DNA from: the human T2T-CHM13v2.0 reference genome, Homo sapiens | Reading direction: 5' to 3' | NCBI GenBank assembly: GCA_009914755.4 | Contig: CP086569.2 | Location: 61,632,001 to 61,696,000 of the forward strand | DNA length: 64,000 bases | Position numbers and translations under genes: made by a program | Shown here: positions 20,901 to 59,270 of the stretch, in pieces | How the letters are laid out: each line of letters starts with the position of its first letter | Numbering within the stretch: position 1 is the first letter of the stretch | The notes under the pieces: model-generated | What the model saw: only the letters and a program-made list of their open reading frames with translations | Database searches by the model: none | What the model was told of the DNA's origin: nothing

Positions 20901-21451
20901 ATGTAATGGAATGGAATGGAAAGGAATCGAAACGAAAGGAATGGAGACAGATGGAATGGAATGGAACAGAGAGCAATGGTATAGAATGGAATGGAATCAT
21001 CTGGAATGGAATTGAATGGAATGGAATAACATGAAATGGAATGGAATGCCCTTGAATTAAATGGACTGGAATGGAGTGGACTCGAACAGAGTGGAATGGA
21101 AAGTGTTGAAATAGAATGGAATGGACTCCTTTGGAATGGTCTAGTATGCAATGCAATCGACTGGCAGGGAATCAAAAGGAATGTAATCGAATGGATTGGA
21201 CTGGAATGCAATGGACTCGAATAGATTGGAAACGGAATGCAAAGGAATGGAATGGAATAGTATGGAATGGAATGGAAAGGAATGGAGTGGAATAGACTAG
21301 AGTGGAATGGAATGGACTCAAAAGCAATGGACTGGAATGGAACTTTCTTGAATGGACTGGAATCAAACGGAATGGAATGCAATGCAATCAAATGGCATGG
21401 AATAAAATAGAATGAAAGAGAATCAAACGGAATTGAATCGAATGGAATCGA
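17938..21451 (+). repeat. HSat3 HOR unit U6 (3514 bp; -25 and -10 bp variants)
   Basis: Anchor at 17938. A 25-bp loss of one (ggaat)4gc block sits near 19,290. The same 10-bp contraction sits near 21,040. Confidence 0.8.
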
Positions 21452-24400
21452 ATGGATTGGAAAGGAATAGAATGGAATGGAATGGAATTGACTCAAATGG
21501 AATGGACTAGAATGGAATGGATTCGAATGGAAGGCAAAGGAATGGAATCTATTGGAATGGACTGTAATGGAATGGAATGGAAGGGATTGGAATGGACTCG
21601 AATGGAATGGACTGCAATAGAAAGGATTCGAATGGAATGAAAAAGAATTGAATGGAATAGAACAGAATGGAATCAAATCGAATGAAATGGAATGGAATAG
21701 AAAGGAATGGAATGAAATGGAATGGAAAGGATTCGAATGGAATGCAATCGAATGGAATGGAATCGAACGGAATGTAATAAAATGGAAGAAAACTGGCAAG
21801 AAATGGAATCGAAATGAATGGAGTGTTATGGAACGGACTCAAAAGGAATTGAATGTAATAGAATGGAGTGGAGTGGACTCGAATATAATGGACTGGAATG
21901 GAATGAAATCACATGGAATGGGAACGAATGGAATGGAATGGAAAGGAATGGAATCAAATGGAAAGGAATCGAATGGAAGGGAATGAAATTGAATCAACAG
22001 GAATGGAAGGGAATAGAATAGACGGTAATGGAATGGACTCGAATAGAATGCACACGAATGCTCAAATTGAATGGACTCGAATGGAATGGAAACGAAAGGA
22101 ATGTCATCGAATGGAATTGAATCGATTGGAATGAAATCACATAGAATGGAGTGGAATCAAATGGAATTGAATCGAAAGGAAAGGAAGCGAATGGACTGAA
22201 ATGAAATGGAATGGAATTGAATGGAAAGTAATGCAATGGAATAGAATGGAACGAAATTTCACGGAATGGAATCAAACTGAATGGAATCAAATCAATGGAA
22301 TATAATCAAATGGAATGGAAAGGAATTGAATGGAGTAGATTGGATTGGATGGGATTGGAATGAAATTTACTGGAAAGGACTCGAATTTCATGAAACGGAA
22401 TGGAATGAATTGGAACGGAATGGACTCGAATGGAATGGAATGTCATGGAATGGCATCAAACGGAATGGCATCAAATGGGATGGAATCGAATGCAATGGAA
22501 TGCTATGGAATGGAATGGAATGCATTGGAATGGAATGTCCTCTAATGGAATGGATTCGAGTGGAATGGAATCGAATATAATGGAGTCGAATGAAATGGAA
22601 TTGAAAGGAATGGGATCGAATACAATGGAATATACTGGAATGTAACGTAATGAACTCGAATGTAATTGACTGGAATGGAATGTACATGAATGGAATGTAA
22701 TCGAATGGAAAGTAATCCAATGGAATAGAATCTAATGCAATAAAATCGACTGTAATAGAATAGAATGTAATGGAATGGAGAGCAGTGCAATGGAATGGAA
22801 TGGAACGGAATGCAATGGAATGGAATGGAATGGAATGGAATGCAATGGGATGGAATGGTATGGAATGGATAGTAATGGACTGGAGTGAAATGGACTGGAA
22901 AGGAATGGACTCAAATTGAAAGGGCTCGAAAGGAATGGAGTCAAATGGAATGGTCTGGAATGGAATGAACACGAATGTAATGCAATCCAATAGAATGGAA
23001 TCGAATGGCATGGAATATAAAGAAATGGAATCGAAGAGAATGGAAACAAATGGAATGGAATTGAATGGAATGGGAACGAATGGAGTGAAATTGTATGCAG
23101 TAGAAGAGAATAGAATGGAATGCAAGCGAAAGGAAAGGAATGGATTGGAATGGAATGTAATTCATTGGAATGGAAGGGAATGTAGTGTAATGGACAGGCC
23201 TGGAATAAAGTGGAATGCTACGGTCTCGAATGGAATAAAAATGTATGGAATGGAATGCAATGAAACGGAATCGAATGTCATAGAATGTAATGGAATGCAA
23301 AAAAATGGACTCCAAAATCATTGACTGGAAAGGCTGGGTGTCGAAAGGAATTGACTCCAATGGAATGGAATCGAATGGAATGGAAGTGAATAGAATCGAA
23401 CTAAATCGAATGGAATGGAATTGATAGGAACGGAATAGAAAGGAATGCAATGATTTGGCATGGAATGGAATCGAATGGCATCGAATGGAATGGAATGGAA
23501 TGCAATGGAATGGAATGTATTAGAATGTAATGAACTTTAATGGAATGTACTCGAATGGATTCGACTGGAATGGAATGTTCTGGAAGTGAATGGACTCCAA
23601 TGGAATGGATTCGAAAGGAATGGAATCGTACGGAATGGTAACCAATGGAATGGAATTAAATGGAAATGAATCAAATTGAATAGAACGGAATTGAATTGAA
23701 TGGAATCGAATGCAATGGAATCTAATGAAACGGAAAGAAAAGGAATGGAATGGAATGGAATGGGCTGGAATGGAATGGAATCGAAACGAATGGAATGGAA
23801 TCGAACTGAAGAGACTGGAATGGAATGCACTGGAATGGAAGGGAGTGTAATGGAAGGTTCTCGAAAAAAATGGAAACGAATGGAATGGAATTGAATGGAA
23901 CGGAATAGAGTCGAATGGAATTGAATGGAATGGAATGGACTAGAGTGAAATGGAATCGAACCACAAGGAATGGACAGGAATAGAATGGTCTCGAATTGAA
24001 TGGAATCGTATGGAATGGCATCAAACGGAATGGAATGGACAGCCACGGAATGGAATGTACTCGAATGCAATGGAGTCGAAACTAATGGACTGGAATAGAA
24101 TGGACTCGACTGGTACGGACTCCAATGGAATGGAATCGAATGGAAGGGAATCGAACGGAATGGACTCGAAGGGAAAAGACTGCAATGGAAAGGTCTCGAA
24201 TGGAATGGAAATTAATGGAATGGAATGGAATCGAAGGAAATGGAGTCAAAAGGAATGGAATCGAATGGCAAGAAATCGAATGTAATGGAATCGCAAGGAA
24301 TTGATGTGAACGGAACGGAATGGAATGGAATCCAAAGGAATGGAATAGAATGGAATGGAATCGAATGGAAAGGACTCGAATGGAAATCACTCGAATAGAA

Positions 24401-24975
24401 TGCAATTTAATAAAATAGGATCAAATGTAATGGAATGGAATGGAAAGGAATCGAAACGAAAGGAATGGAGACAGATGGAATGGAATGGAACAGAGAGCAA
24501 TGGTATAGAATGGAATGGAATCATCTGGAATGGAATTGAATGGAATGGAATAACATGAAATGGAATGGAATGCCCTTGAATTAAATGGACTGGAATGGAG
24601 TGGACTCGAACAGAGTGGAATGGAAAGTGTTGAAATAGAATGGAATGGACTCCTTTGGAATGGTCTAGTATGCAATGCAATCGACTGGCAGGGAATCAAA
24701 AGGAATGTAATCGAATGGATTGGACTGGAATGCAATGGACTCGAATAGATTGGAAACGGAATGCAAAGGAATGGAATGGAATAGTATGGAATGGAATGGA
24801 AAGGAATGGAGTGGAATAGACTAGAGTGGAATGGAATGGACTCAAAAGCAATGGACTGGAATGGAACTTTCTTGAATGGACTGGAATCAAACGGAATGGA
24901 ATGCAATGCAATCAAATGGCATGGAATAAAATAGAATGAAAGAGAATCAAACGGAATTGAATCGAATGGAATCGA
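21452..24975 (+). repeat. HSat3 HOR unit U7 (3524 bp; -15 and -10 bp variants)
   Basis: Anchor at 21452. A 15-bp deletion near 23,065 leaves 'ggaatgggaacgaatgg', a different breakpoint from U5. It carries 'ggtaaccaatgg', 'atggaaacgaatgg' and a 10-bp contraction near 24,560. Confidence 0.8.
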
Positions 24976-27900
24976 ATGGATTGGAAAGGAATAGAATGGA
25001 ATGGAATGGAATTGACTCAAATGGAATGGACTAGAATGGAATGGATTCGAATGGAAGGCAAAGGAATGGAATCTATTGGAATGGACTGTAATGGAATGGA
25101 ATGGAAGGGATTGGAATGGACTCGAATGGAATGGACTGCAATAGAAAGGATTCGAATGGAATGAAAAAGAATTGAATGGAATAGAACAGAATGGAATCAA
25201 ATCGAATGAAATGGAATGGAATAGAAAGGAATGGAATGAAATGGAATGGAAAGGATTCGAATGGAATGCAATCGAATGGAATGGAATCGAACAGAATGTA
25301 ATAAAATGGAAGAAAACTGGCAAGAAATGGAATCGAAATGAATGGAGTGTTATGGAACGGACTCAAAAGGAATTGAATGTAATAGAATGGAGTGGAGTGG
25401 ACTCGAATATAATGGACTGGAATGGAATGAAATCACATGGAATGGGAACGAATGGAATGGAATGGAAAGGAATGGAATCAAATGGAAAGGAATCGAATGG
25501 AAGGGAATGAAATTGAATCAACAGGAATGGAAGGGAATAGAATAGACGGTAATGGAATGGACTCGAATAGAATGCACACGAATGCTCAAATTGAATGGAC
25601 TCGAATGGAATGGAAACGAAAGGAATGTCATCGAATGGAATTGAATCGATTGGAATGAAATCGCATAGAATGCAGTGGAATCAAATGGAATTGAATCGAA
25701 AGGAAAGGAAGCGAATGGACTGAAATGAAATGGAATGGAATTGAATGGAAAGTAATGCAATGGAATAGAATGGAACGAAATTTCACGGAATGGAATCAAA
25801 CTGAATGGAATCAAATCAATGGAATATAATCAAATGGAATGGAAAGGAATTGAATGGAGTAGATTGGATTGGATGGGATTGGAATGAAATTTACTGGAAA
25901 GGACTCGAATTTCATGAAACGGAATGGAATGAATTGGAACGGAATGGACTCGAATGGAATGGAATGTCATGGAATGGCATCAAACGGAATGGCATCAAAT
26001 GGGATGGAATCGAATGCAATGGAATGCTATGGAATGGAATGGAATGCATTGGAATGGAATGTCCTCTAATGGAATGGATTCGGGTGGAATGGAATCGAAT
26101 ATAATGGAGTCGAATGAAATGGAATTGAAAGGAATGGGATCGAATACAATTGAATATACTGGAATGTAACGTAATGAACTCGAATGTAATTAACTGGAAT
26201 GGAATGTACATGAACGGAATGTAATGGAATGGAAAGTAATCCAATGGAATAGAATCTAATGCAATAAAATTGACTGTAATAGAATAGAATGTAATGGAAT
26301 GGAGTGCAGTGCAATGGAATGGAATGGAATGGAATGCAATGGAATGGAATGGAATGGAATGGAATGCAATGGGATGGAATGGTATGGAATGGATAGTAAT
26401 GGACTGGAGTGAAATGGACTGGAAAGGAATGGACTCAAATTGAAAGGGCTCGAAAGGAATGGAGTCAAATGGAATGGTCTGGAATGGAATGAACACGAAT
26501 GTAATGCAATCCAATAGAATGGAATCGAATGGCAAGGAATATAAAGAAATGGAATCGAAGAGAATGGAAACAAATGGAATGGAATTGAATGGAATGGAAT
26601 TGAATGGAATGGGAACGAATGGAGTGAAATTGTATGCAGTAGAAGAGAATAGAATGGAATGCAAGCGAAAGGAAAGGAATGGATTGGAATGGAATGGAAT
26701 TCATTGGAATGGAAGGGAATGTAGTGTAATGGACAGGCCTGGAATAAAGTGGAATGCTACGGTCTCGAATGGAATAAAAATGTATGGAATGGAATGCAAT
26801 GAAACGGAATCGAATGTCATAGAATGTAATGGAATGCAAAAAAATGGACTCCAAAATCATTGACTGGAAAGGCTGGGTGTCGAAAGGAATTGACTCCAAT
26901 GGAATGGAATCGAATGGAATGGAAGTGAATAGAATCGAACTAAATCGAATGGAATGGAATTGATAGGAACGGAATGGAAAGGAATGCAATGATTTGGCAT
27001 GGAATGGAATCGAATGGCATAGAATGGAATGGAATGGAATGCAATGGAATGGAATGTATTAGAATGTAATGAACTTTAATGGAATGTACTCGAATGGATT
27101 CGACTGGAATGGAATGTTCTGGAAGTGAATGGACTCCAATGGAATGGATTCGAAAGGAATGGAATCGTACGGAATGGTATCCAATGGAATGGAATTAAAT
27201 GGAAATGAATCAAATTGAATAGCACGGAATTGAATTGAATGGAATCGAATGCAATGGAATCTAATGAAACGGAAAGGAAAGGAATGGAATGGAATGGAAT
27301 GGGCTGGAATGGAATGGAATCGAAACGAATGGAATGGAATCGAACTGAAGAGACTGGAATGGAATGCACTGGAATGGAAGGGAGTGTAATGGAAGGTTCT
27401 CGAAAAAAATGGAATCGAATGGAATGGAATTGAATGGAACGGAATAGAGTCGAATGGAATTGAATGGAATGGAATGGACTAGAGTGAAATGGAATCGAAC
27501 CACAAGGAATGGACAGGAATAGAATGGTCTCGAATTGAATGGAATCGTATGGAATGGCATCAAACGGAATGGAATGGACAGCCACGGAATGGAATGCACT
27601 CGAATGCAATGGAGTCGAAACTAATGGACTGGAATAGAATGGACTCGACAGGTACGGACTCCAATGGAATGGAATCGAATGCAAGGGAATCGAACGGAAT
27701 GGACTCGAAGGGAAAAGACTGCAATGGAAAGGTCTCGAATGGAATGGAAATTAATGGAATGGAATGGAATCGAATGAAATGGAGTCAAAAGGAATGGAAT
27801 CGAATGGCAAGAAATCGAATGTAATGGAATCGCAAGGAATTGATGTGAACGGAACGGAATGGAATGGAATCCAAAGGAATGGAATAGAATGGAATGGAAT

Positions 27901-28524
27901 CGAATGGAAAGGACTCGAATGGAAATCACTCGAATAGAATGCAATTTAATAAAATAGGATCAAATGTAATGGAATGGAATGGAAAGGAATCGAAACGAAA
28001 GGAATGGAGACAGATGGAATGGAATGGAACAGAGAGCAATGGTATAGAATGGAATGGAATCATCTGGAATGGAATTGAATGGAATGGAATAACATGAAAT
28101 GGAATGGAATGGAATGGAATGCCCTTGAATTAAATGGACTGGAATGGAATGGACTCGAACAGAGTGGAATGGAAAGTGTTGAAATAGAATGGAATGGACT
28201 CCTTTGGAATGGTCTAGTATGCAATGCAATCGACTGGCAGGGAATCAAAAGGAATGTAATCGAATGGATTGGACTGGAATGCAATGGACTCGAATAGATT
28301 GGAAACGGAATGCAAAGGAATGGAATGGAATAGTATGGAATGGAATGGAAAGGAATGGAGTGGAATAGACTAGAGTGGAATGGAATGGACTCAAAAGCAA
28401 TGGACTGGAATGGAACTTTCTTGAATGGACTGGAATCAAACGGAATGGAATGCAATGCAATCAAATGGCATGGAATAAAATAGAATGAAAGAGAATCAAA
28501 CGGAATTGAATCGAATGGAATCGA
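24976..28524 (+). repeat. HSat3 HOR unit U8 (3549 bp)
   Basis: Anchor at 24976. Private variants 'cgaacagaatgtaat' (IEQNVIK) and the YYIL codon change are shared only with U11. Confidence 0.8.
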
Positions 28525-31500
28525 ATGGATTGGAAAGGAATAGAATGGAATGGAATGGAATTGACTCAAATGGAATGGACTAGAATGGAATGGATTCGAA
28601 TGGAAGGCAAAGGAATGGAATCTATTGGAATGGACTGTAATGGAATGGAATGGAAGGGATTGGAATGGACTCGAATGGAATGGACTGCAATAGAAAGGAT
28701 TCGAATGGAATGAAAAAGAATTGAATGGAATAGAACAGAATGGAATCAAATCGAATGAAATGGAATGGAATAGAAAGGAATGGAATGAAATGGAATGGAA
28801 AGGATTCGAATGGAATGCAATCGAATGGAATGGAATCGAACGGAATGTAATAAAATGGAAGAAAACTGGCAAGAAATGGAATCGAAATGAATGGAGTGTT
28901 ATGGAACGGACTCAAAAGGAATTGAATGTAATAGAATGGAGTGGAGTGGACTCGAATATAATGGACTGGAATGGAATGAAATCACATGGAATGGGAACGA
29001 ATGGAATGGAATGGAAAGGAATGGAATGGAATGGAAAGGAATCGAATGGAAGGGAATGAAATTGAATCAACAGGAATGGAAGGGAGTAGAATAGACGGCA
29101 ATGGAATGGACTCGAATAGAATGCACACGAATGCTCAAATTGAATGGACTCGAATGGAATGGAAACGAAAGGAATGTCATCGAATGGAATTGAATCGATT
29201 GGAATGAAATCGCATAGAATGCAGTGGAATCAAATGGAATTGAATCGAAAGGAAAGGAAGCGAATGGACTGAAATGAAATGGAATGGAATTGAATGGAAA
29301 GTAATGCAATGGAATAGAATGGAACGAAATTTCACGGAATGGAATCAAACTGAATGGAATCAAATCAATGGAATATAATCAAATGGAATGGAAAGGAATT
29401 GAATGGAGTAGATTGGATTGGATGGGATTGGAATGAAATTTACTGGAAAGGACTCGAATTTCATGAAACGGAATGGAATGAATTGGAACGGAATGGACTC
29501 GAATGGAATGGAATGTCATGGAATGGCATCAAACGGAATGGCATCAAATGGGATGGAATCGAATGCAATGGAATGCTATGGAATGGAATGGAATGCATTG
29601 GAATGGAATGTCCTCTAATGGAATGGATTTGGGTGGAATGGAATCGAATATAATGGAGTCGAATGAAATGGAATTGAAAGGAATGGGATCGAATACAATG
29701 GAATATACTGGAATGTAACGTAATGAACTCGAATGTAATTAACTGGAATGGAATGTACATGAACGGAATGTAATCGAATGGAAAGTAATCCAATGGAATA
29801 GAATCTAATGCAATAAAATTGACTGTAATAGAATAGAATGTAATGGAATGGAGTGCAGTGCAATGGAATGGAATGGAATGGAATGCAATGGAATGGAATG
29901 GAATGGAATGGAATGCAATGGGATGGAATGGTATGGAATGGATAGTAATGGACTGGAGTGAAATGGACTGGAAAGGAATGGACTCAAATTGAAAGGGCTC
30001 GAAAGGAATGGAGTCAAATGGAATGATCTGGAATGGAATGAACACGAATGTAATGCAATCCAATAGAATGGAATCGAATGGCAAGGAATATAAAGAAATG
30101 GAATCGAAGAGAATGGAAACAAATGGAATGGAATTGAATGGAATGGAATTGAATGGAATGGGAACGAATGGAGTGAAATTGTATGCAGTAGAAGAGAATA
30201 GAATGGAATGCAAGCGAAAGGAAAGGAATGGATTGGAATGGAATGGAATTCATTGGAATGGAAGGGAATGTAGTGTAATGGACAGGCCTGGAATAAAGTG
30301 GAATGCTACGGTCTCGAATGGAATAAAAATGTATGGAATGGAATGCAATGAAACGGAATCGAATGTCATAGAATGTAATGGAATGCAAAAAAATGGACTC
30401 CAAAATCATTGACTGGAAAGGCTGGGTGTCGAAAGGAATTGACTCCAATGGAATGGAATCGAATGGAATGGAAGTGAATAGAATCGAACTAAATCGAATG
30501 GAATGGAATTGATAGGAACGGAATGGAAAGGAATGCAATGATTTGGCATGGAATGGAATCGAATGGCATCGAATGGAATGGAATGGAATGCAATGGAATG
30601 GAATGTATTAGAATGTAATGAACTTTAATGGAATGTACTCGAATGGATTCGACTGGAATGGAATGTTCTGGAAGTGAATGGACTCCAATGGAATGGATTC
30701 GAAAGGAATGGAATCGTACGGAATGGTATCCAATGGAATGGAATTAAATGGAAATGAATCAAATTGAATAGCACGGAATTGAATTGAATGGAATCGAATG
30801 CAATGGAATCTAATGAAACGGAAAGGAAAGGAATGGAATGGAATGGAATGGGCTGGAATGGAATGGAATCGAAACGAATGGAATGGAATCGAACTGAAGA
30901 GACTGGAATGGAATGCACTGGAATGGAAGGGAGTGTAATGGAAGGTTCTCGAAAAAATGGAATCGAATGGAATGGAATTGAATGGAACGGAATAGAGTCG
31001 AATGGAATTGAATGGAATGGAATGGACTAGAGTGAAATGGAATCGAACCACAAGGAATGGACAGGAATAGAATGGTCTCGAATTGAATGGAATCGTATGG
31101 AATGGCATCAAACGGAATGGAATGGACAGCCACGGAATGGAATGCACTCGAATGCAATGGAGTCGAAACTAATGGACTGGAATAGAATGGACTCGACTGG
31201 TACGGACTCCAATGGAATGGAATCGAATGCAAGGGAATCGAACGGAATGGACTCGAAGGGAAAAGACTGCAATGGAAAGGTCTCGAATGGAATGGAAATT
31301 AATGGAATGGAATGGAATCGAATGAAATGGAGTCAAAAGGAATGGAATCGAATGGCAAGAAATCGAATGTAATGGAATCGCAAGGAATTGATGTGAACGG
31401 AACGGAATGGAATGGAATCCAAAGGAATGGAATAGAATGGAATGGAATCGAATGGAAAGGACTCGAATGGAAATCACTCGAATAGAATGCAATTTAATAA

Positions 31501-32072
31501 AATAGGATCAAATGTAATGGAATGGAATGGAAAGGAATCGAAACGAAAGGAATGGAGACAGATGGAATGGAATGGAACAGAGAGCAATGGTATAGAATGG
31601 AATGGAATCATCTGGAATGGAATTGAATGGAATGGAATAACATGAAATGGAATGGAATGGAATGGAATGCCCTTGAATTAAATGGACTGGAATGGAATGG
31701 ACTCGAACAGAGTGGAATGGAAAGTGTTGAAATAGAATGGAATGGACTCCTTTGGAATGGTCTAGTATGCAATGCAATCGACTGGCAGGGAATCAAAAGG
31801 AATGTAATCGAATGGATTGGACTGGAATGCAATGGACTCGAATAGATTGGAAACGGAATGCAAAGGAATGGAATGGAATAGTATGGAATGGAATGGAAAG
31901 GAATGGAGTGGAATAGACTAGAGTGGAATGGAATGGACTCAAAAGCAATGGACTGGAATGGAACTTTCTTGAATGGACTGGAATCAAACGGAATGGAATG
32001 CAATGCAATCAAATGGCATGGAATAAAATAGAATGAAAGAGAATCAAACGGAATTGAATCGAATGGAATCGA
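28525..32072 (+). repeat. HSat3 HOR unit U9 (3548 bp)
   Basis: Anchor at 28525. The first part is b-type. A 1-bp contraction of an A7 run to A6 near 30,955 explains 3548 against 3549 and the aberrant ORFs at 30608-31232. Confidence 0.8.
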
Positions 32073-35000
32073 ATGGATTGGAAAGGAATAGAATGGAATG
32101 GAATGGAATTGACTCAAATGGAATGGACTAGAATGGAATGGATTCGAATGGAAGGCAAAGGAATGGAATCTATTGGAATGGACTGTAATGGAATGGAATG
32201 GAAGGGATTGGAATGGACTCGAATGGAATGGACTGCAATAGAAAGGATTCGAATGGAATGAAAAAGAATTGAATGGAATAGAACAGAATGGAATCAAATC
32301 GAATGAAATGGAATGGAATAGAAAGGAATGGAATGAAATGGAATGGAAAGGATTCGAATGGAATGCAATCGAATGGAATGGAATCGAACGGAATGTAATA
32401 AAATGGAAGAAAACTGGCAAGAAATGGAATCGAAATGAATGGAGTGTTATGGAACGGACTCAAAAGGAATTGAATGTAATAGAATGGAGTGGAGTGGACT
32501 CGAATATAATGGACTGGAATGGAATGAAATCACATGGAATGGGAACGAATGGAATGGAATGGAAAGGAATGGAATGGAATGGAAAGGAATCGAATGGAAG
32601 GGAATGAAATTGAATCAACAGGAATGGAAGGGAGTAGAATAGACGGTAATGGAATGGACTCGAATAGAATGCACACGAATGCTCAAATTGAATGGACTCG
32701 AATGGAATGGAAACGAAAGGAATGTCATCGAATGGAATTGAATCGATTGGAATGAAATCGCATAGAATGCAGTGGAATCAAATGGAATTGAATCGAAAGG
32801 AAAGGAAGGGAATGGACTGAAATGAAATGGAATGGAATTGAATGGAAAGTAATGCAATGGAATAGAATGGAACGAAATTTCACGGAATGGAATCAAACTG
32901 AATGGAATCAAATCAATGGAATATAATCAAATGGAATGGAAAGGAATTGAATGGAGTAGATTGGATTGGATGGGATTGGAATGAAATTTACTGGAAAGGA
33001 CTCGAATTTCATGAAACGGAATGGAATGAATTGGAACGGAATGGACTCGAATGGAATGGAATGTCATGGAATGGCATCAAACGGAATGCCATCAAATGGA
33101 ATGGAATCGAATGCAATGGAATGCTATGGAATGGAATGGAATGCATTGGAATGGAATGTCCTCTAACGGAATGGATTCGGGTGGAATGGAATCGAATATA
33201 ATGGAGTCGAATGAAATGGAATTGAAAGGAATGGGATCGAATACAATGGAACATACTGGAATGTAACGTAATGAACTCGAATGTAATTGACTGGAATGGA
33301 ATGTACATGAATGGAATGTAATCGAATGGAAAGTAATCCAATGGAATAGAATCTAATGCAATAAAATCGACTGTAATAGAATAGAATGTAATGGAATGGA
33401 GAGCAGTGCAATGGAATGGAATGGAACGGAATGCAATGGAATGGAATGGAATGGAATGGAATGCAATGGGATGGAATGGTATGGAATGGATAGTAATGGA
33501 CTGGAGTGAAATGGACTGGAAAGGAATGGACTCAAATTGAAAGGGCTCGAAAGGAATGGAGTCAAATGGAATGGTCTGGAATGGAATGAACACGAATGTA
33601 ATGCAATCCAATAGAATGGAATCGAATGGCATGGAATATAAAGAAATGGAATCGAAGAGAATGGAAACAAATGGAATGGAATTGAATGGAATGGGAACGA
33701 ATGGAGTGAAATTGTATGCAGTAGAAGAGAATAGAATGGAATGCAAGCGAAAGGAAAGGAATGGATTGGAATGGAATGGAATTCATTGGAATGGAAGGGA
33801 ATGTAGTGTAATGGACAGGCCTGGAATAAAGTGGAATGCTACGGTCTCGAATGGAATAAAAATGTATGGAATGGAATGCAATGAAACGGAATCGAATGTC
33901 ATAGAATGTAATGGAATGCAAAAAAATGGACACCAAAATCATTGACTGGAAAGGCTGGGTGTCGAAAGGAATTGACTCCAATGGAATGGAATCGAATGGA
34001 ATGGAAGTGAATAGAATCGAACTAAATCGAATGGAATGGAATTGATAGGAACGGAATAGAAAGGAATGCAATGATTTGGCATGGAATGGAATCGAATGGC
34101 ATCGAATGGAATGGAATGGAATGCAATGGAATGGAATGTATTAGAATGTAATGAACTTTAATGGAATGTACTCGAATGGATTCGACTGGAATGGAATGTT
34201 CTGGAAGTGAATGGACTCCAATGGAATGGATTCGAAAGGAATGGAATCGTACGGAATGGTAACCAATGGAATGGAATTAAATGGAAATGAATCAAATTGA
34301 ATAGAACGGAATTGAATTGAATGGAATCGAATGCAATGGAATCTAATGAAACGGAAAGGAAAGGAATGGAATGGAATGGAATGGGCTGGAATGGAATGGA
34401 ATCGAAACGAATGGAATGGAATCGAACTGAAGAGACTGGAATGGAATGCACTGGAATGGAAGGGAGTGTAATGGAAGGTTCTCGAAAAAAATGGAAACGA
34501 ATGGAATGGAATTGAATGGAACGGAATAGAGTCGAATGGAATTGAATGGAATGGAATGGACTAGAGTGAAATGGAATCGAACCACAAGGAATGGACAGGA
34601 ATAGAATGGTCTCGAATTGAATGGAATCGTATGGAATGGCATCAAACGGAATGGAATGGACAGCCACGGAATGGAATGTACTCGAATGCAATGGAGTCGA
34701 AACTAATGGACTGGAATAGAATGGACTCGACTGGTACGGACTCCAATGGAATGGAATCGAATGGAAGGGAATCGAACGGAATGGACTCGAAGGGAAAAGA
34801 CTGCAATGGAAAGGTCTCGAATGGAATGGAAATTAATGGAATGGAATGGAATCGAATGAAATGGAGTCAAAAGGAATGGAATCGAATGGCAAGAAATCGA
34901 ATGTAATGGAATCGCAAGGAATTGATGTGAACGGAACGGAATGGAATGGAATCCAAAGGAATGGAATAGAATGGAATGGAATCGAATGGAAAGGACTCGA

Positions 35001-35596
35001 ATGGAAATCACTCGAATAGAATGCAATTTAATAAAATAGGATCAAATGTAATGGAATGGAATGGAAAGGAATCGAAACGAAAGGAATGGAGACAGATGGA
35101 ATGGAATGGAACAGAGAGCAATGGTATAGAATGGAATGGAATCATCTGGAATGGAATTGAATGGAATGGAATAACATGAAATGGAATGGAATGCCCTTGA
35201 ATTAAATGGACTGGAATGGAGTGGACTCGAACAGAGTGGAATGGAAAGTGTTGAAATAGAATGGAATGGACTCCTTTGGAATGGTCTAGTATGCAATGCA
35301 ATCGACTGGCAGGGAATCAAAAGGAATGTAATCGAATGGATTGGACTGGAATGCAATGGACTCGAATAGATTGGAAACGGAATGCAAAGGAATGGAATGG
35401 AATAGTATGGAATGGAATGGAAAGGAATGGAGTGGAATAGACTAGAGTGGAATGGAATGGACTCAAAAGCAATGGACTGGAATGGAACTTTCTTGAATGG
35501 ACTGGAATCAAACGGAATGGAATGCAATGCAATCAAATGGCATGGAATAAAATAGAATGAAAGAGAATCAAACGGAATTGAATCGAATGGAATCGA
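32073..35596 (+). repeat. HSat3 HOR unit U10 (3524 bp; -15 and -10 bp variants)
   Basis: Anchor at 32073. It has the same 15-bp deletion as U7 (near 33,685), the same 'ggtaaccaatgg' and 'atggaaacgaatgg', and the 10-bp contraction near 35,181. Its first ~1.3 kb carries 'ggaatgccatcaaatgg' and PSFPFDS variants shared with U13. Confidence 0.8.
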
Positions 35597-38500
35597 ATGG
35601 ATTGGAAAGGAATAGAATGGAATGGAATGGAATTGACTCAAATGGAATGGACTAGAATGGAATGGATTCGAATGGAAGGCAAAGGAATGGAATCTATTGG
35701 AATGGACTGTAATGGAATGGAATGGAAGGGATTGGAATGGACTCGAATGGAATGGACTGCAATAGAAAGGATTCGAATGGAATGAAAAAGAATTGAATGG
35801 AATAGAACTGAATGGAATCAAATCGAATGAAATGGAATGGAATAGAAAGGAATGGAATGAAATGGAATGGAAAGGATTCGAATGGAATGCAATCGAATGG
35901 AATGGAATCGAACAGAATGTAATAAAATGGAAGAAAACTGGCAAGAAATGGAATCGAAATGAATGGAGTGTTATGGAACGGACTCAAAAGGAATTGAATG
36001 TAATAGAATGGAGTGGAGTGGACTCGAATATAATGGACTGGAATGGAATGAAATCACATGGAATGGGAACGAATGGAATGGAATGGAAAGGAATGGAATC
36101 AAATGGAAAGGAATCGAATGGAAGGGAATGAAATTGAATCAACAGGAATGGAAGGGAATAGAATAGACGGTAATGGAATGGACTCGAATAGAATGCACAC
36201 GAATGCTCAAATTGAATGGACTCGAATGGAATGGAAACGAAAGGAATGTCATCGAATGGAATTGAATCGATTGGAATGAAATCGCATAGAATGCAGTGGA
36301 ATCAAATGGAATTGAATCGAAAGGAAAGGAAGCGAATGGACTGAAATGAAATGGAATGGAATTGAATGGAAAGTAATGCAATGGAATAGAATGGAACGAA
36401 ATTTCACGGAATGGAATCAAACTGAATGGAATCAAATCAATGGAATATAATCAAATGGAATGGAAAGGAATTGAATGGAGTAGATTGGATTGGATGGGAT
36501 TGGAATGAAATTTACTGGAAAGGACTCGAATTTCATGAAACGGAATGGAATGAATTGGAACGGAATGGACTCGAATGGAATGGAATGTCATGGAATGGCA
36601 TCAAACGGAATGGCATCAAATGGGATGGAATCGAATGCAATGGAATGCTATGGAATGGAATGGAATGCATTGGAATGGAATGTCCTCTAATGGAATGGAT
36701 TCGGGTGGAATGGAATCGAATATAATGGAGTCGAATGAAATGGAATTGAAAGGAATGGGATCGAATACAATGGAATATACTGGAATGTAACGTAATGAAC
36801 TCGAATGTAATTAACTGGAATGGAATGTACATGAACGGAATGTAATGGAATGGAAAGTAATCCAATGGAATAGAATCTAATGCAATAAAATTGACTGTAA
36901 TAGAATAGAATGTAATGGAATGGAGTGCAGTGCAATGGAATGGAATGGAATGGAATGCAATGGAATGGAATGGAATGGAATGGAATGCAATGGGATGGAA
37001 TGGTATGGAATGGATAGTAATGGACTGGAGTGAAATGGACTGGAAAGGAATGGACTCAAATTGAAAGGGCTCGAAAGGAATGGAGTCAAATGGAATGGTC
37101 TGGAATGGAATGAACACGAATGTAATGCAATCCAATAGAATGGAATCGAATGGCAAGGAATATAAAGAAATGGAATCGAAGAGAATGGAAACAAATGGAA
37201 TGGAATTGAATGGAATGGAATTGAATGGAATGGGAACGAATGGAGTGAAATTGTATGCAGTAGAAGAGAATAGAATGGAATGCAAGCGAAAGGAAAGGAA
37301 TGGATTGGAATGGAATGGAATTCATTGGAATGGAAGGGAATGTAGTGTAATGGACAGGCCTGGAATAAAGTGGAATGCTACGGTCTCGAATGGAATAAAA
37401 ATGTATGGAATGGAATGCAATGAAACGGAATCGAATGTCATAGAATGTAATGGAATGCAAAAAAATGGACTCCAAAATCATTGACTGGAAAGGCTGGGTG
37501 TCGAAAGGAATTGACTCCAATGGAATGGAATCGAATGGAATGGAAGTGAATAGAATCGAACTAAATCGAATGGAATGGAATTGATAGGAACGGAATGGAA
37601 AGGAATGCAATGATTTGGCATGGAATGGAATCGAATGGCATAGAATGGAATGGAATGGAATGCAATGGAATGGAATGTATTAGAATGTAATGAACTTTAA
37701 TGGAATGTACTCGAATGGATTCGACTGGAATGGAATGTTCTGGAAGTGAATGGACTCCAATGGAATGGATTCGAAAGGAATGGAATCGTACGGAATGGTA
37801 TCCAATGGAATGGAATTAAATGGAAATGAATCAAATTGAATAGCACGGAATTGAATTGAATGGAATCGAATGCAATGGAATCTAATGAAACGGAAAGGAA
37901 AGGAATGGAATGGAATGGAATGGGCTGGAATGGAATGGAATCGAAACGAATGGAATGGAATCGAACTGAAGAGACTGGAATGGAATGCACTGGAATGGAA
38001 GGGAGTGTAATGGAAGGTTCTCGAAAAAAATGGAATCGAATGGAATGGAATTGAATGGAACGGAATAGAGTCGAATGGAATTGAATGGAATGGAATGGAC
38101 TAGAGTGAAATGGAATCGAACCACAAGGAATGGACAGGAATAGAATGGTCTCGAATTGAATGGAATCGTATGGAATGGCATCAAACGGAATGGAATGGAC
38201 AGCCACGGAATGGAATGCACTCGAATGCAATGGAGTCGAAACTAATGGACTGGAATAGAATGGACTCGACTGGTACGGACTCCAATGGAATGGAATCGAA
38301 TGCAAGGGAATCGAACGGAATGGACTCGAAGGGAAAAGACTGCAATGGAAAGGTCTCGAATGGAATGGAAATTAATGGAATGGAATGGAATCGAATGAAA
38401 TGGAGTCAAAAGGAAGGGAATCGAATGGCAAGAAATCGAATGTAATGGAATCGCAAGGAATTGATGTGAAAGGAACGGAATGGAATGGAATCCAAAGGAA

Positions 38501-39145
38501 TGGAATAGAATGGAATGGAATCGAATGGAAAGGACTCGAATGGAAATCACTCGAATAGAATGCAATTTAATAAAATAGGATCAAATGTAATGGAATGGAA
38601 TGCAAAGGAATCGAAACGAAAGGAATGGAGACAGATGGAATGGAATGGAACAGAGAGCAATGGTATAGAATGGAATGGAATCATCTGGAATGGAATTGAA
38701 TGGAATGGAATAACATGAAATGGAATGGAATGGAATGGAATGCCCTTGAATTAAATGGACTGGAATGGAATGGACTCGAACAGAGTGGAATGGAAAGTGT
38801 TGAAATAGAATGGAATGGACTCCTTTGGAATGGTCTAGTATGCAATGCAATCGACTGGCAGGGAATCAAAAGGAATGTAATCGAATGGATTGGACTGGAA
38901 TGCAATGGACTCGAATAGATTGGAAACGGAATGCAAAGGAATGGAATGGAATAGTATGGAATGGAATGGAAAGGAATGGAGTGGAATAGACTACAGTGGA
39001 ATGGAATGGACTCAAAAGCAATGGACTGGAATGGAACTTTCTTGAATGGACTGGAATCAAACGGAATGGAATGCAATGCAATCAAATGGCATGGAATAAA
39101 ATAGAATGAAAGAGAATCAAACGGAATTGAATCGAATGGAATCGA
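35597..39145 (+). repeat. HSat3 HOR unit U11 (3549 bp)
   Basis: Anchor at 35597. It shares the IEQNVIK, YYIL and FPFHY variants with U8. Confidence 0.8.
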
Positions 39146-42100
39146 ATGGATTGGAAAGGAATAGAATGGAATGGAATGGAATTGACTCAAATGGAATGGA
39201 CTAGAATGGAATGGATTCGAATGGAAGGCAAAGGAATGGAATCTATTGGAATGGACTGTAATGGAATGGAATGGAAGGGATTGGAATGGACTCGAATGGA
39301 ATGGACTGCAATAGAAAGGATTCGAATGGAATGAAAAAGAATTGAATGGAATAGAACAGAATGGAATCAAATCGAATGAAATGGAATGGAATAGAAAGGA
39401 ATGGAATGAAATGGAATGGAAAGGATTCGAATGGAATGCAATCGAATGGAATGGAATCGAACGGAATGTAATAAAATGGAAGAAAACTGGCAAGAAATGG
39501 AATCGAAATGAATGGAGTGTTATGGAACGGACTCAAAAGGAATTGAATGTAATAGAATGGAGTGGAGTGGACTCGAATATAATGGACTGGAATGGAATGA
39601 AATCACATGGAATGGGAACGAATGGAATGGAATGGAAAGGAATGGAATGGAATGGAAAGGAATCGAATGGAAGGGAATGAAATTGAATCAACAGGAATGG
39701 AAGGGAGTAGAATAGACGGTAATGGAATGGACTCGAATAGAATGCACACGAATGCTCAAATTGAATGGACTCGAATGGAATGGAAACGAAAGGAATGTCA
39801 TCGAATGGAATTGAATCGATTGGAATGAAATCGCATAGAATGCAGTGGAATCAAATGGAATTGAATCGAAAGGAAAGGAAGCGAATGGACTGAAATGAAA
39901 TGGAATGGAATTGAATGGAAAGTAATGCAATGGAATAGAATGGAACGAAATTTCACGGAATGGAATCAAACTGAATGGAATCAAATCAATGGAATATAAT
40001 CAAATGGAATGGAAAGGAATTGAATGGAGTAGATTGGATTGGATGGGATTGGAATGAAATTTACTGGAAAGGACTCGAATTTCATGAAACGGAATGGAAT
40101 GAATTGGAACGGAATGGACTCGAATGGAATGGAATGTCATGGAATGGCATCAAACGGAATGGCATCAAATGGGATGCAATCGAATGCAATGGAATGCTAT
40201 GGAATGGAATGGAATGCATTGGAATGGAATGTCCTCTAATGGAATGGATTCGGGTGGAATGGAATCGAATATAATGGAGTCGAATGAAATGGAATTGAAA
40301 GGAATGGGATCGAATACAATGGAATATACTGGAATGTAACGTAATGAACTCGAATGTAATTAACTGGAATGGAATGTACATGAACGGAATGTAATCGAAT
40401 GGAAAGTAATCCAATGGAATAGAATCTAATGCAATAAAATTGACTGTAATAGAATAGAATGTAATGGAATGGAGTGCAGTGCAATGGAATGGAATGGAAT
40501 GGAATGCAATGGAATGGAATGGAATGGAATGGAATGCAATGGGATGGAATGGTATGGAATGGATAGTAATGGACTGGAGTGAAATGGACTGGAAAGGAAT
40601 GGACTCAAATTGAAAGGGCTCGAAAGGAATGGAGTCAAATGGAATGGTCTGGAATGGAATGAACACGAATGTAATGCAATCCAATAGAATGGAATCGAAT
40701 GGCAAGGAATATAAAGAAATGGAATCGAAGAGAATGGAAACAAATGGAATGGAATTGAATGGAATGGAATTGAATGGAATGGGAACGAATGGAGTGAAAT
40801 TGTATGCAGTAGAAGAGAATAGAATGGAATGCAAGCGAAAGGAAAGGAATGGATTGGAATGGAATGGAATTCATTGGAATGGAAGGGAATGTAGTGTAAT
40901 GGACAGGCCTGGAATAAAGTGGAATGCTACGGTCTCGAATGGAATAAAAATGTATGGAATGGAATGCAATGAAACGGAATCGAATGTCATAGAATGTAAT
41001 GGAATGCAAAAAAATGGACTCCAAAATCATTGACTGGAAAGGCTGGGTGTCGAAAGGAATTGACTCCAATGGAATGGAATCGAATGGAATGGAAGTGAAT
41101 AGAATCGAACTAAATCGAATGGAATGGAATTGATAGGAACGGAATGGAAAGGAATGCAATGATTTGGCATGGAATGGAATCGAATGGCATCGAATGGAAT
41201 GGAATGGAATGCAATGGAATGGAATGTATTAGAATGTAATGAACTTTAATGGAATGTACTCGAATGGATTCGACTGGAATGGAATGTTCTGGAAGTGAAT
41301 GGACTCCAATGGAATGGATTCGAAAGGAATGGAATCGTACGGAATGGTATCCAATGGAATGGAATTAAATGGAAATGAATCAAATTGAATAGCACGGAAT
41401 TGAATTGAATGGAATCGAATGCAATGGAATCTAATGAAACGGAAAGGAAAGGAATGGAATGGAATGGAATGGGCTGGAATGGAATGGAATCGAAACGAAT
41501 GGAATGGAATCGAACTGAAGAGACTGGAATGGAATGCACTGGAATGGAAGGGAGTGTAATGGAAGGTTCTCGAAAAAAATGGAATCGAATGGAATGGAAT
41601 TGAATGGAACGGAATAGAGTCGAATGGAATTGAATGGAATGGAATGGACTAGAGTGAAATGGAATCGAACCACAAGGAATGGACAGGAATAGAATGGTCT
41701 CGAATTGAATGGAATCGTATGGAATGGCATCAAACGGAATGGAATGGACAGCCACGGAATGGAATGCACTCGAATGCAATGGAGTCGAAACTAATGGACT
41801 GGAATAGAATGGACTCGACTGGTACGGACTCCAATGGAATGGAATCGAATGCAAGGGAATCGAACGGAATGGACTCGAAGGGAAAAGACTGCAATGGAAA
41901 GGTCTCGAATGGAATGGAAATTAATGGAATGGAATGGAATCGAATGAAATGGAGTCAAAAGGAATGGAATCGAATGGCAAGAAATCGAATGTAATGGAAT
42001 CGCAAGGAATTGATGTGAACGGAACGGAATGGAATGGAATCCAAAGGAATGGAATAGAATGGAATGGAATCGAATGGAAAGGACTCGAATGGAAATCACT

Positions 42101-42694
42101 CGAATAGAATGCAATTTAATAAAATAGGATCAAATGTAATGGAATGGAATGGAAAGGAATCGAAACGAAAGGAATGGAGACAGATGGAATGGAATGGAAC
42201 AGAGAACAATGGTATAGAATGGAATGGAATCATCTGGAATGGAATTGAATGGAATGGAATAACATGAAATGGAATGGAATGGAATGGAATGCCCTTGAAT
42301 TAAATGGACTGGAATGGAATGGACTCGAACAGAGTGGAAAGGAAAGTGTTGAAATAGAATGGAATGGACTCCTTTGGAATGGTCTAGTATGCAATGCAAT
42401 CGACTGGCAGGGAATCAAAAGGAATGTAATCGAATGGATTGGACTGGAATGCAATGGACTCGAATAGATTGGAAACGGAATGCAAAGGAATGGAATGGAA
42501 TAGTATGGAATGGAATGGAAAGGAATGGAGTGGAATAGACTAGAGTGGAATGGAATGGACTCAAAAGCAATGGACTGGAATGGAACTTTCTTGAATGGAC
42601 TGGAATCAAACGGAATGGAATGCAATGCAATCAAATGGCATGGAATAAAATAGAATGAAAGAGAATCAAACGGAATTGAATCGAATGGAATCGA
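39146..42694 (+). repeat. HSat3 HOR unit U12 (3549 bp)
   Basis: Anchor at 39146. Its first part is b-type, like U9. Confidence 0.8.
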
Positions 42695-45600: not shown

Positions 45601-46242
45601 AATAGAATGGAATGGAATCGAATGGAAAGGACTCGAATGGAAATCACTCGAATAGAATGCAATTTAATAAAATAGGATCAAATGTAATGGAATGGAATGG
45701 AAAGGAATCGAAACGAAAGGAATGGAGACAGATGGAATGGAATGGAACAGAGAGCAATGGTATAGAATGGAATGGAATCATCTGGAATGGAATTGAATGG
45801 AATGGAATAACATGAAATGGAATGGAATGGAATGGAATGCCCTTGAATTAAATGGACTGGAATGGAATGGACTCGAACAGAGTGGAATGGAAAGTGTTGA
45901 AATAGAATGGAATGGACTCCTTTGGAATGGTCTAGTATGCAATGCAATCGACTGGCAGGGAATCAAAAGGAATGTAATCGAATGGATTGGACTGGAATGC
46001 AATGGACTCGAATAGATTGGAAATGGAATGCAAAGGAATGGAATGGAATAGTATGGAATGGAATGGAAAGGAATGGAGTGGAATAGACTAGAGTGGAATG
46101 GAATGGACTCAAAAGCAATGGACTGGAATGGAACTTTCTTGAATGGACTGGAATCAAACGGAATGGAATGCAATGCAATCAAATGGCATGGAATAAAATA
46201 GAATGAAAGAGAATCAAACGGAATTGAATCGAATGGAATCGA
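42695..46242 (+). repeat. HSat3 HOR unit U13 (3548 bp)
   Basis: Anchor at 42695. A 1-bp deletion near 44,375 ('gaatagaatgaatgcaagcg') fuses reading frames into the 358-aa ORF at 43631-44707. The first ~1.3 kb matches the variant state of U10. Confidence 0.8.
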
Positions 46243-58795: not shown

Positions 58796-58800
58796 AAATA
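58790..58800. other. Breakpoint between the HSat3 (DYZ1-like) array and the AT-rich HSat1B (DYZ2-like) array
   Basis: 'ggtgtcgaaaggaat|aaataatatacattatataaaat'. HSat3 homology ends at 58,795 (+/-3 bp, because of 'aat' microhomology). The sequence after it aligns with 61,212 onward in the next 2.4-kb unit. Confidence 0.8.
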
Positions 58801-59180: not shown

Positions 59181-59270
59181 ATGATATATGATATACAATA
59201 TATGATATATAACACACAATATATGATACACAATATATATGGTATACAATATATACTTTATGATATGTAT
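59181..59270. repeat. Degenerate ~16-18-bp tandem sub-repeat (atgatatacaatat-like) inside the AT-rich block
   Basis: 'atgatat atgatatacaatat atgatatataacacacaatat atgatacacaatatat atggtatacaatatatac'. The equivalent copy is at ~61,595-61,690. Confidence 0.5.

What the first reader, a model, noticed from the sequence alone, without database searches (positions are those of the whole stretch)
21452..42694. Super-repeat inside the array: a 3-HOR (~10.6-kb) segment present twice in tandem
U7, U8 and U9 (21,452-32,072) match U10, U11 and U12 (32,073-42,694) respectively in diagnostic variants, at a spacing of 10,621 bp. U7 and U10 share the same 15-bp deletion, 'ggtaaccaatgg', 'atggaaacgaatgg' and the 10-bp contraction. 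U8 and U11 share 'cgaacagaatgtaat' and the YYIL change. U9 and U12 share b-type first parts. U13's first ~1.3 kb also matches U10's first part, suggesting a third, partly converted copy. This is evidence for unequal crossing-over of multi-HOR segments plus patchy gene conversion.
Basis: seen in the sequence. Interest (0 to 1): 0.55.

Follow-up and report, generated by a model that had tools for sequence, protein, structure and literature searches.

The report
Three-unit tandem duplication in DYZ1 satellite
A 10.6-kb block of three repeat units really is present twice in a row inside what looks like a human Y-chromosome DYZ1 satellite array; it is the ordinary footprint of one unequal exchange, a process already well documented for this region.

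Summary
At a spacing of 10,621 bp, about 10.6 kb of the (GGAAT)n array matches itself at 99.7-99.8% identity. Equivalent three-unit blocks elsewhere in the window match at 99.0-99.4%. No other spacing (1-13 units) gives a stretch longer than 3.9 kb at 0.2% divergence or less, whereas spacing 3 gives 11.0 kb.

The best register is 22,632-33,252 against 33,253-43,874, with 19 substitutions and one 1-bp indel.

One unequal exchange, crossing over within unit columns 1149-1371 (window 33,181-33,401), explains three things at once:
- U7 and U10 share tails.
- U10 and U13 share heads.
- U10 is the chimeric junction unit.

No third copy or extra gene-conversion patch is needed.

The array fits human Yq12 DYZ1 (HSat3A6):
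- a roughly 3.55-kb unit;
- one HaeIII site per unit;
- the classical DYZ1 primer pair, giving 154 bp;
- a neighbouring 2,413-bp DYZ2/HSat1B repeat with an old Alu.

Unit-multiple duplications by unequal exchange are already described for Yq12, so the finding is real but ordinary.

The parts
1..58795 (+). DYZ1-type (HSat3, GGAAT-derived) satellite array. It holds 16 full units of 3,514-3,554 bp, a partial unit at each end, and runs off the left edge of the window.
   Evidence: TRF finds a period 5/10/15 array over 5-58,626. There is one GGCC (HaeIII) site per unit. The DYZ1 primer pair hits once per unit. GGAAT-like sequence continues to about 58,795.
22632..33252 (+). Copy A of the three-unit duplication: U7 tail + U8 + U9 + U10 head. 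The left limit is uncertain within 22,560-22,780.
   Evidence: Sliding-window minimum of 20 differences at lag 3 units. Global alignment to copy B gives 19 mismatches and 1 gap, 99.81%.
33253..43874 (+). Copy B of the three-unit duplication: U10 tail + U11 + U12 + U13 head. The right limit is uncertain within 43,803-44,023.
   Evidence: Same as copy A. It is 1 bp longer than copy A because of an A7/A6 run (41,573 against 30,951).
32073..35596 (+). U10, the chimeric junction unit. Its head matches the U13 head and its tail matches the U7 tail.
   Evidence: Columns 1-1240: U10/U13 differ at 2 sites, U10/U7 at 11. Columns 1241-2420: U10/U7 3, U10/U13 12. Columns 2421-3596: U10/U7 1, U10/U13 6.
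33181..33401 (+). Inferred crossover interval (unit columns 1149-1371), the junction between copy A and copy B. The equivalent intervals are 22,560-22,780 in U7 and 43,803-44,023 in U13.
   Evidence: The last site where U10 = U13 but differs from U7 is column 1149 (and 1136). The first site where U10 = U7 but differs from U13 is column 1371. No indel or filler sequence is present.
21955..22631 (+). Part of the U7 head that is NOT in the duplication. It is a divergent patch relative to the U10 head and belongs to the left flank.
   Evidence: 11 differences from U10 in 677 bp. The nearest relatives of the U7 head are U3 and U14, at 3 differences.
58796..64000 (+). Flanking DYZ2/HSat1B-type satellite with a 2,413-bp period. 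Each unit has a part that is more than 85% AT and a roughly 1-kb GC-richer part.
   Evidence: Best self-lag is 2,413. GC is 10-20% in the AT-rich part and 31-50% in the other. TRF shows AT-rich periods. This matches the description in 10.1101/2022.12.01.518724 and 10.1101/2022.12.01.518658.
60065..60356 (-). Old Alu subunit of the DYZ2 repeat. A second copy lies at 62,478-62,768.
   Evidence: There is a weak Rfam mir-1268 (Alu-derived) hit at 60,168-60,234.

Best explanation
The window covers the last ~58.8 kb of a DYZ1 (HSat3A6) array, most probably human Yq12, and the start of the adjoining DYZ2 (HSat1B) array.

Inside the DYZ1 array, one unequal exchange between copies misaligned by exactly three units duplicated a 10,621-bp segment in tandem. 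Because the Y has no homologue here, this would most probably have been an exchange between sister chromatids. A replication-based template switch would leave the same product.

The crossover fell in homologous sequence at unit columns 1149-1371. The array before the event read ...U6, U7, U8, U9, [U10 head + U13 tail], U14... After it, the array read ...U7, U8, U9, [U10 head + U7 tail = today's U10], U11 (= U8), U12 (= U9), [U13 head (= U10 head) + original tail], U14...

The two copies have since accumulated 19 substitutions and one 1-bp homopolymer indel. Seventeen of these 20 changes are private to a single unit.

What is shown and what is inferred:
- Shown: the two copies, their extent, the chimeric unit and the pattern of differences.
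- Inferred: the molecular mechanism and the age. The age is about 2,300 generations at the pedigree Yq12 rate of 3.86e-7 per bp per generation, and up to about 30,000 generations at a euchromatic Y rate.
For: Identity and extent of the duplication:
- The lag-10,621 ungapped identity is 99.2-100% in 500-bp bins across 21.5-30.5 kb.
- At lag 3 units the minimum is 20 differences per 10,621 bp. For lags 1, 2, 4, 5 and 6 the minimum is 53-61 and the median about 70.
- The longest stretch at 0.2% divergence or less is 11,037 bp at lag 3, against at most 3,867 bp at all other lags from 1 to 13.
- Identity is 99.81% in the shifted register. Control blocks give 99.0-99.4%.

Support for common ancestry of the pairs:
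- Bootstrap sister support in the shifted phase is 99/85/96%.
- U10 is chimeric: its head is nearest to U13 (2 differences) and its tail nearest to U7 (3 and 1 differences).
- Six sites group U8 with U11 and U9 with U12 (columns 333, 519, 520, 587, 1292, 2092). No site supports the alternative pairings.
- 17 of the 20 differences between the copies are singletons.
- The diagnostic 31-mers of the pairs are absent from 26 independent DYZ1-bearing metagenome contigs, so they are local derived variants rather than common unit types.

Support for the DYZ1 identification:
- Unit size, one HaeIII site per unit, primers giving 154 bp, and the DYZ2 flank.
- These match the descriptions in 10.1101/2022.12.01.518724 and 10.1101/2022.12.01.518658.

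Support for the mechanism from the literature:
- Rhie et al. report tandem duplications consistent with unequal exchange, and sister-chromatid exchanges in Yq12 in about 15% of Strand-seq libraries.
- Porubsky et al. saw de novo gains or losses of whole DYZ2 units about once per Y transmission.
Against: - The array is so homogeneous (99.0-99.8% between units) that the contrast is only about 3-4-fold in divergence. Exact-match runs at other lags (1,448 bp at lag 1; 1,355 bp at lag 2) are nearly as long as the best at lag 3 (1,498 bp).
- U9/U12 has no private shared variant and, taken alone, is no closer than U3/U12 in the middle third.
- U13 shares 1281t and 1396c with U7 and U10 just right of the inferred crossover. 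The right limit is therefore soft, and some three-unit similarity may have existed before the event.
- Only the window was available. With thousands of DYZ1 units elsewhere on Yq12, conversion from unseen donors cannot be excluded.
- The species and chromosome could not be checked against a reference assembly.
Confidence: 0.75

Rival explanations
1. The duplication is in register with the unit boundaries (U7-U9 = 21,452-32,072; U10-U12 = 32,073-42,694). A third copy begins at U13 and was largely overwritten, and patchy gene conversion accounts for the mismatched heads.
For: In whole-unit comparisons, U7/U10, U8/U11 and U9/U12 are mutual nearest neighbours. About 29% of de novo Yq12 SNVs look like interlocus gene conversion (PMC12240836), so conversion patches are plausible in principle.
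Against: - It needs at least two extra events: conversion of the U7 or U10 head, and loss or conversion of most of a third copy.
- 11 of the 29 differences cluster in 677 bp (P = 8e-8).
- U11/U14 and U12/U15 show no special similarity (16 and 33 differences).
- Bootstrap support for all three pairs together is 36% in this phase, against 81% in the shifted phase.
Confidence: 0.1
2. This is a standing three-unit super-repeat (an A-A-B module) rather than a single recent event. On this view the array, or its unseen interior to the left, is organised in three-unit modules. The two copies seen here are just the two least-diverged neighbours, kept alike by repeated exchange.
For: U3-U4-U5 shows the same A-A-B order of unit types as U8-U9-U10. 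B-type tails recur in U5, U7 and U10. Lag-3 distances are lowish from U6 to U14, at 7-20 differences per unit pair. U13 shares 1281t, 1396c and 2753g with U7 and U10.
Against: - Outside 22.6-43.9 kb the lag-3 comparisons are at background: U4/U7 35, U5/U8 34, U12/U15 33, U13/U16 56 differences.
- The A-A-B match of U3-U5 to U8-U10 is at lag 5, not lag 3, and is not above background (minimum 53).
- The high-identity stretch lasts one period (11.0 kb) and no more.
Confidence: 0.1
3. This is an assembly artefact: a false duplication or mis-join of reads in a near-identical satellite.
For: Yq12 is among the hardest regions to assemble. The only indel between the copies is in an A6/A7 homopolymer, which is a typical error site.
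Against: The copies differ at 19 substitutions spread over the whole 10.6 kb, whereas false duplications are normally identical. The junction unit aligns column for column with no anomaly. Flanking units are distinguishable from both copies.
Confidence: 0.04

Closest known systems
Human Yq12 DYZ1 (HSat3A6) arrays alternating with DYZ2 (HSat1B), as resolved in T2T-Y (Rhie et al. 2023) and in 43 Y assemblies (Hallast et al. 2023)
   Same: - A pentamer-derived unit of about 3.5-3.6 kb with one HaeIII site.
- GC of 38-39%, matching the 38% that Hallast reports.
- A neighbouring unit of about 2.4 kb with a part that is more than 85% AT, plus an Alu about 20% diverged from AluY.
- Units more diverged at the array edge.
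- Evolution by unequal exchange and tandem duplication.
   Different: The modal unit here is 3,549 bp, whereas the commonest HaeIII fragment in Hallast is 3,569 bp. The specific three-unit duplication is not described in the texts I could read. I could not align the window to a reference Y.
De novo whole-unit gains and losses in Yq12 seen in pedigrees (Porubsky et al. 2025, PMC12240836)
   Same: A change in array length by an integer number of repeat units within a homogeneous Yq12 satellite, attributed to sister-chromatid exchange.
   Different: The observed events were 1-2 DYZ2 units (2,416-4,839 bp) and were caught as they happened. This one is 3 DYZ1 units (10,621 bp) and is old enough to have gathered 20 differences.
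Multi-unit (super-HOR) duplications and layered expansions in centromeric alpha-satellite arrays; Smith (1976) model of unequal crossover (from my own knowledge)
   Same: Tandem duplication of a block of several higher-order units, recognisable by shared variants at a spacing that is a multiple of the unit, with a chimeric unit at the exchange point.
   Different: The satellite family is different (HSat3, not alpha satellite) and there is no centromere function. Only two copies are present, so it is a single duplication rather than an established higher-level period.

Membership tests
DYZ1 / HSat3A6 (human Yq12) | Built from diverged GGAAT/CATTC pentamers | tested here: met
   TRF consensus is GGAATGGAAT / GGAATGGAATGGAAT over 5-58,626. 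GC skew is strongly positive throughout.
DYZ1 / HSat3A6 (human Yq12) | Nested unit of about 3.5-3.6 kb with a single HaeIII (GGCC) site, giving the classical ~3.56-kb fragment | tested here: met
   Units are 3,514-3,554 bp. GGCC occurs exactly once per unit, with fragments of 3,514-3,569 bp. Sizes are compared with 10.1101/2022.12.01.518658.
DYZ1 / HSat3A6 (human Yq12) | Amplified by the classical Y-specific DYZ1 primer pair (Y1.1/Y1.2, 154-bp product). The primer sequences and product size are from memory and were not found in the paper library. | tested here: met
   Both primers match once per unit, exactly in most units, in the right orientation. For example, 23,061-23,214 is 154 bp.
DYZ1 / HSat3A6 (human Yq12) | Adjoins DYZ2/HSat1B blocks: a ~2.4-kb unit with an AT-rich part, a diverged AluY and a GC-richer part | tested here: met
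   Period is 2,413 bp. GC is 10-20% in the AT-rich part and 31-50% in the other. The Alu is 77% identical to the consensus.
DYZ1 / HSat3A6 (human Yq12) | Located on the human Y chromosome | not testable with these tools
   No human reference is available. Indirect support: U8 is 96-99% identical to contigs in 26 metagenome records, one of them labelled human gut.
Tandem duplication by unequal (out-of-register) homologous exchange | Two head-to-tail copies whose spacing is an integer number of base units | tested here: met
   The spacing of 10,621-10,622 bp equals 3 units (3,524 + 3,549 + 3,548).
Tandem duplication by unequal (out-of-register) homologous exchange | The copies are closer to each other than to any other same-phase segment, over about one period only | tested here: met
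   20 differences against at least 53 at other lags. The low-divergence stretch is 11.0 kb against at most 3.9 kb. Permutation gives 8/5000.
Tandem duplication by unequal (out-of-register) homologous exchange | A chimeric unit at the junction, with no filler or microhomology-only junction | tested here: met
   U10 head equals the U13 head and U10 tail equals the U7 tail. The switch lies between columns 1149 and 1371 with no indel.
Tandem duplication by unequal (out-of-register) homologous exchange | A single-copy (ancestral) allele exists in other haplotypes, or the event is observed directly | not testable with these tools
   This needs other Y assemblies or pedigree data.
Established super-repeat (higher-level period of three or more copies across the array) | The three-unit period recurs beyond one pair of copies | tested here: not met
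   Lag-3 block identities fall to 99.0-99.4% outside the pair. U12/U15 differ at 33 sites and U4/U7 at 35. Only the last 58.8 kb of the array is visible.

The most novel reading that the evidence does not exclude
The three-unit block could be the seed of a new higher-level period in this DYZ1 array, an A-A-B module that recurs further into the unseen interior. Alternatively, it could be a young duplication (tens of thousands of years old at the pedigree Yq12 rate) that is polymorphic among Y haplogroups. In that case it would be a datable structural marker and a calibration point for exchange and mutation rates in Yq12.
Probability: 0.12. Interest if true: 0.35.

Novelty: already known. Interest (0 to 1): 0.15.

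Why it matters
This is a clean, base-resolved example of how satellite arrays grow. One out-of-register exchange copies several units and leaves a chimeric junction unit, and later point changes mark the time elapsed. It adds nothing new in kind, because Yq12 is already known to evolve by unequal exchange and whole-unit gains and losses. Compared across complete Y assemblies, however, such small duplications could serve as local clocks and lineage markers in a region where ordinary variant calling fails. For the scan itself, the lesson is that copy boundaries in satellite duplications need not coincide with the chosen unit boundaries. A phase shift can look like 'gene conversion plus a partial third copy'.

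Tried and rejected
- A global ungapped lag scan over the whole array was uninformative, because 5-25-bp indels between units break the register. A local lag scan and gapped alignments replaced it.
- The longest exact matches by lag do not single out lag 3 convincingly (1,498 bp against 1,448, 1,381 and 1,355 bp at other lags). Exact-match dot plots would therefore understate the signal, and difference counts over long windows were needed.
- The repeat finder on 17-47 kb was swamped by the pentamer repeat and returned only 300-nt families with 10-15-bp spacing.
- A third, older copy at U3-U5 (lag 5) was rejected. Its similarity is not above background.
- A third copy at U13-U15 was rejected.
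- A search for the recombinant-unit signature (1136c ... 1371a) in metagenome contigs gave no hits.
- A generic DYZ1 search found 26 contaminant contigs. These are collapsed short-read units or noisy long-read contigs with 23-49 gap openings per unit, so they are unusable for structure.
- Searching for the DYZ1 primer sequence in the paper library gave nothing, so the primers remain cited from memory.
- The Rfam scan of the flank found only weak Alu-derived mir-1268 hits below threshold.
- No protein-level analysis was attempted. This is a non-coding satellite.
Full report
**What the window is.** Positions 5-58,626 are a single (GGAAT)n-derived array with 38-39% GC and strong G-over-C skew.

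- A 60-nt probe from 21,452 recurs 17 times. This gives unit starts at 223, 3762, 7316, 10865, 14415, 17938, 21452, 24976, 28525, 32073, 35597, 39146, 42695, 46243, 49792, 53346 and 56900, and unit lengths of 3,514-3,554 bp.
- GGCC (HaeIII) occurs exactly once per unit.
- From about 58,796 the sequence becomes a different repeat with a 2,413-bp period. Each unit has a part that is more than 85% AT and a GC-richer part of about 1 kb, which holds an Alu 77% identical to the AluY consensus on the minus strand.
- This is the published description of human Yq12: DYZ1/HSat3A6 units of about 3.5-3.6 kb alternating with DYZ2/HSat1B units of about 2.4 kb made of an AT-rich part, an AluY about 20% diverged, and a GC-richer part (10.1101/2022.12.01.518724; 10.1101/2022.12.01.518658).
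- Unit U8 is 96-99% identical to contaminant contigs in 26 metagenome records, one of them labelled human gut.
- I could not align the window to a human reference, so the chromosomal assignment rests on these features.

**Checking the observation.** At a lag of exactly 10,621 bp, ungapped identity is 99.2-100% in every 500-bp bin from 21,501 to 30,500. Elsewhere it is about 30%, that is, out of register.

- In a MAFFT alignment of the 17 units, U7/U10 differ at 15 sites, U8/U11 at 7 and U9/U12 at 6. Each is the other's nearest neighbour, and other pairs mostly differ at 10-35 sites.
Adjacent three-unit blocks that do not overlap the event give 99.0-99.4%.
- Shuffling the unit order reaches the observed three-block sum in 8 of 5000 permutations.
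- Two qualifications apply. The 15-bp and 10-bp deletions are also carried by U5 (and U17), and by U5 and U6, respectively. U9 and U12 share no private variant: their 'b-type' head is also in U4, U10 and U13.

**How strong and how unique.** I counted differences in sliding 10,621-bp windows for each unit lag.

- Lag 3 reaches a minimum of 20. Lags 1, 2, 4, 5 and 6 never go below 53-61, and the median is about 70.
- The longest stretch at 0.2% divergence or less is 11,037 bp at lag 3 (22,632-33,668). At every other lag from 1 to 13 it is at most 3,867 bp.
- Exact-match run lengths do not discriminate: 1,498 bp at lag 3 against 1,448 bp at lag 1. The whole array is very homogeneous, so the contrast is about 3-4-fold in divergence rather than all-or-none.

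**Where the copies really begin and end.** The minimum of the sliding count lies at starts of about 22,560-22,640, not at 21,452.

- Of the 15 U7/U10 differences, 11 lie in unit columns 519-1221 (21,955-22,631). Only 4 lie in the remaining 2.4 kb. The Poisson probability of such a cluster is 8e-8.
- In that first third, U10 is nearest to U13 (2 differences) and 11 differences from U7. U7 is nearest to U3 and U14. In the other two thirds, U10 is nearest to U7 (3 and 1 differences) and far from U13 (12 and 6).
- The switch lies between column 1149 (U10 = U13, differing from U7) and column 1371 (U10 = U7, differing from U13). In the window this is 33,181-33,401.
- With copies defined as 22,632-33,252 and 33,253-43,874, the alignment has 19 mismatches and one 1-bp gap (99.81%).
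With units re-cut at column 1250 it is 99/85/96% (all three together 81%).

**Interpretation.** One out-of-register homologous exchange, offset by three units and crossing over within columns 1149-1371, accounts for everything.

- U10 is the chimeric junction unit: the head of the unit that originally followed U9, joined to the tail of U7.
- U11 and U12 are the copies of U8 and U9.
- The U10-like head of U13 is simply the end of copy B, followed by the original tail.
- No third copy is needed, and none is supported: U11/U14 differ at 16 sites and U12/U15 at 33.
- No separate gene-conversion patch is needed.
- Of the 20 differences between the copies, 17 are private to one unit, split about evenly between the copies. 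Three involve alleles also seen in other units (columns 1068, 2846, 3241). These could be small conversions or recurrent changes.
- Six sites group U8 with U11 and U9 with U12, and none support the alternative pairings.
- The diagnostic 31-mers of U7/U10, U8/U11 and U10/U13 are absent from the 26 independent DYZ1 contigs. They therefore look like local derived variants rather than common unit types, though that sample is small.

**Mechanism and age (inferred).** The male-specific Y has no homologue, so the exchange would be between sister chromatids or within a chromatid. A replication template switch would give the same product.

- Rhie et al. describe Yq12 duplications consistent with unequal exchange. 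They saw sister-chromatid exchanges in Yq12 in about 15% of Strand-seq libraries.
- Hallast et al. discuss replication slippage and NAHR for intra-array expansions.
- Porubsky et al. observed de novo gains or losses of whole DYZ2 units about once per transmission. They estimated 3.86e-7 SNVs per bp per generation in Yq12, with 29% looking like interlocus conversion.
- With 19 substitutions in 10,621 bp, that rate gives about 2,300 generations since the duplication. A euchromatic Y rate of about 3e-8 (from memory) would give about 30,000 generations. The age is therefore uncertain by an order of magnitude.

**Rivals.**
- A standing three-unit super-repeat is hinted at by the A-A-B order of U3-U5 and by B-type tails in U5, U7 and U10. 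But lag-3 similarity is at background outside the pair, and the U3-U5 resemblance is at lag 5 and not above background. Only the last 58.8 kb of the array is visible, so the interior cannot be judged.
- An assembly artefact is unlikely, because the copies differ at 19 well-spread substitutions.

**Comparison with what is known, and verdict.** This is a small instance of a process already documented for Yq12 and for satellites in general: tandem duplication of several units by unequal exchange. It is a member of that kind, with every sequence-level defining feature I could test met. It is not an established higher-level period. Its boundaries are shifted by about 1.2 kb, and its appeal to a third copy and to patchy conversion is unnecessary. 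Interest is low (0.15) and the novelty is 'already known'.

Noticed in passing
window 49,792-58,795 (U15, U16, partial U17): Units next to the DYZ2 boundary are far more diverged than interior ones. U16 differs from other units at 43-53 sites, and the half-length U17 at 55-64. U16 also has its own 15-, 10- and 15-bp indels. This matches the published pattern of divergent units at array edges.
   Followed up: partly
window 58,626-58,800: The DYZ1 array does not end at 58,626, which is where TRF ends it. GGAAT-like sequence, including a degenerate copy of the HaeIII/primer site at 58,636-58,658, continues to about 58,795. There it abuts the AT-rich DYZ2 sequence directly.
   Followed up: partly
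window 58,796-64,000: The DYZ2/HSat1B-type repeat has a 2,413-bp period. Old Alu subunits lie on the minus strand at 60,065-60,356 and 62,478-62,768, at 77% identity to AluY. The weak sub-threshold Rfam mir-1268 hits at 60,168-60,234 and 62,581-62,647 are just this Alu.
   Followed up: yes
whole DYZ1 array (alignment columns): All length differences between units larger than 1 bp are multiples of 5 bp (5, 10, 15 or 25). This is as expected from slippage of the pentamer. An example is the 25-bp deletion private to U6 at about 19,271.
   Followed up: no
window 30,951 (U9) and 44,374 (U13): The only two 1-bp indels in the array are in an A7/A6 run and a GG/G run. They could be real slippage or consensus errors of a long-read assembly.
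   Followed up: partly
whole DYZ1 array: Transitions and transversions are about equal among unit variants: 71:73 at biallelic sites and 55:50 among singletons. This is far below the usual genome-wide ratio of about 2, and is in line with the lowered ratio reported for highly identical duplicated sequence (PMC12240836).
   Followed up: no
window 14,415-24,975 (U5-U7) and 7,316-17,937 (U3-U5): The B-type tail variants (15-bp deletion, 2251a, 2294a, 2668t, 10-bp deletion, 3220g) occur in U5, U7 and U10, and the last two also occur at the end of U6. U3-U4-U5 has the same A-A-B order as U8-U9-U10. This suggests older exchanges at other offsets, but their similarity is not above background.
   Followed up: partly
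loci L001-L026 (metagenome contigs), e.g. L019 1-7186, L004 1-11798: DYZ1 units appear as human contamination in metagenome assemblies. Several contigs of 3.56-3.72 kb look like one collapsed unit. Two contigs of about 55 kb (BNJT01001888.1, BNJU01004413.1) hold noisy long-read DYZ1 arrays.
   Followed up: partly
window, GGCC spacing: The modal unit or HaeIII fragment here is 3,549 bp, and only one fragment is 3,569 bp. Hallast et al. give 3,569 bp as the commonest fragment length. This array edge therefore carries a slightly shorter unit variant.
   Followed up: no
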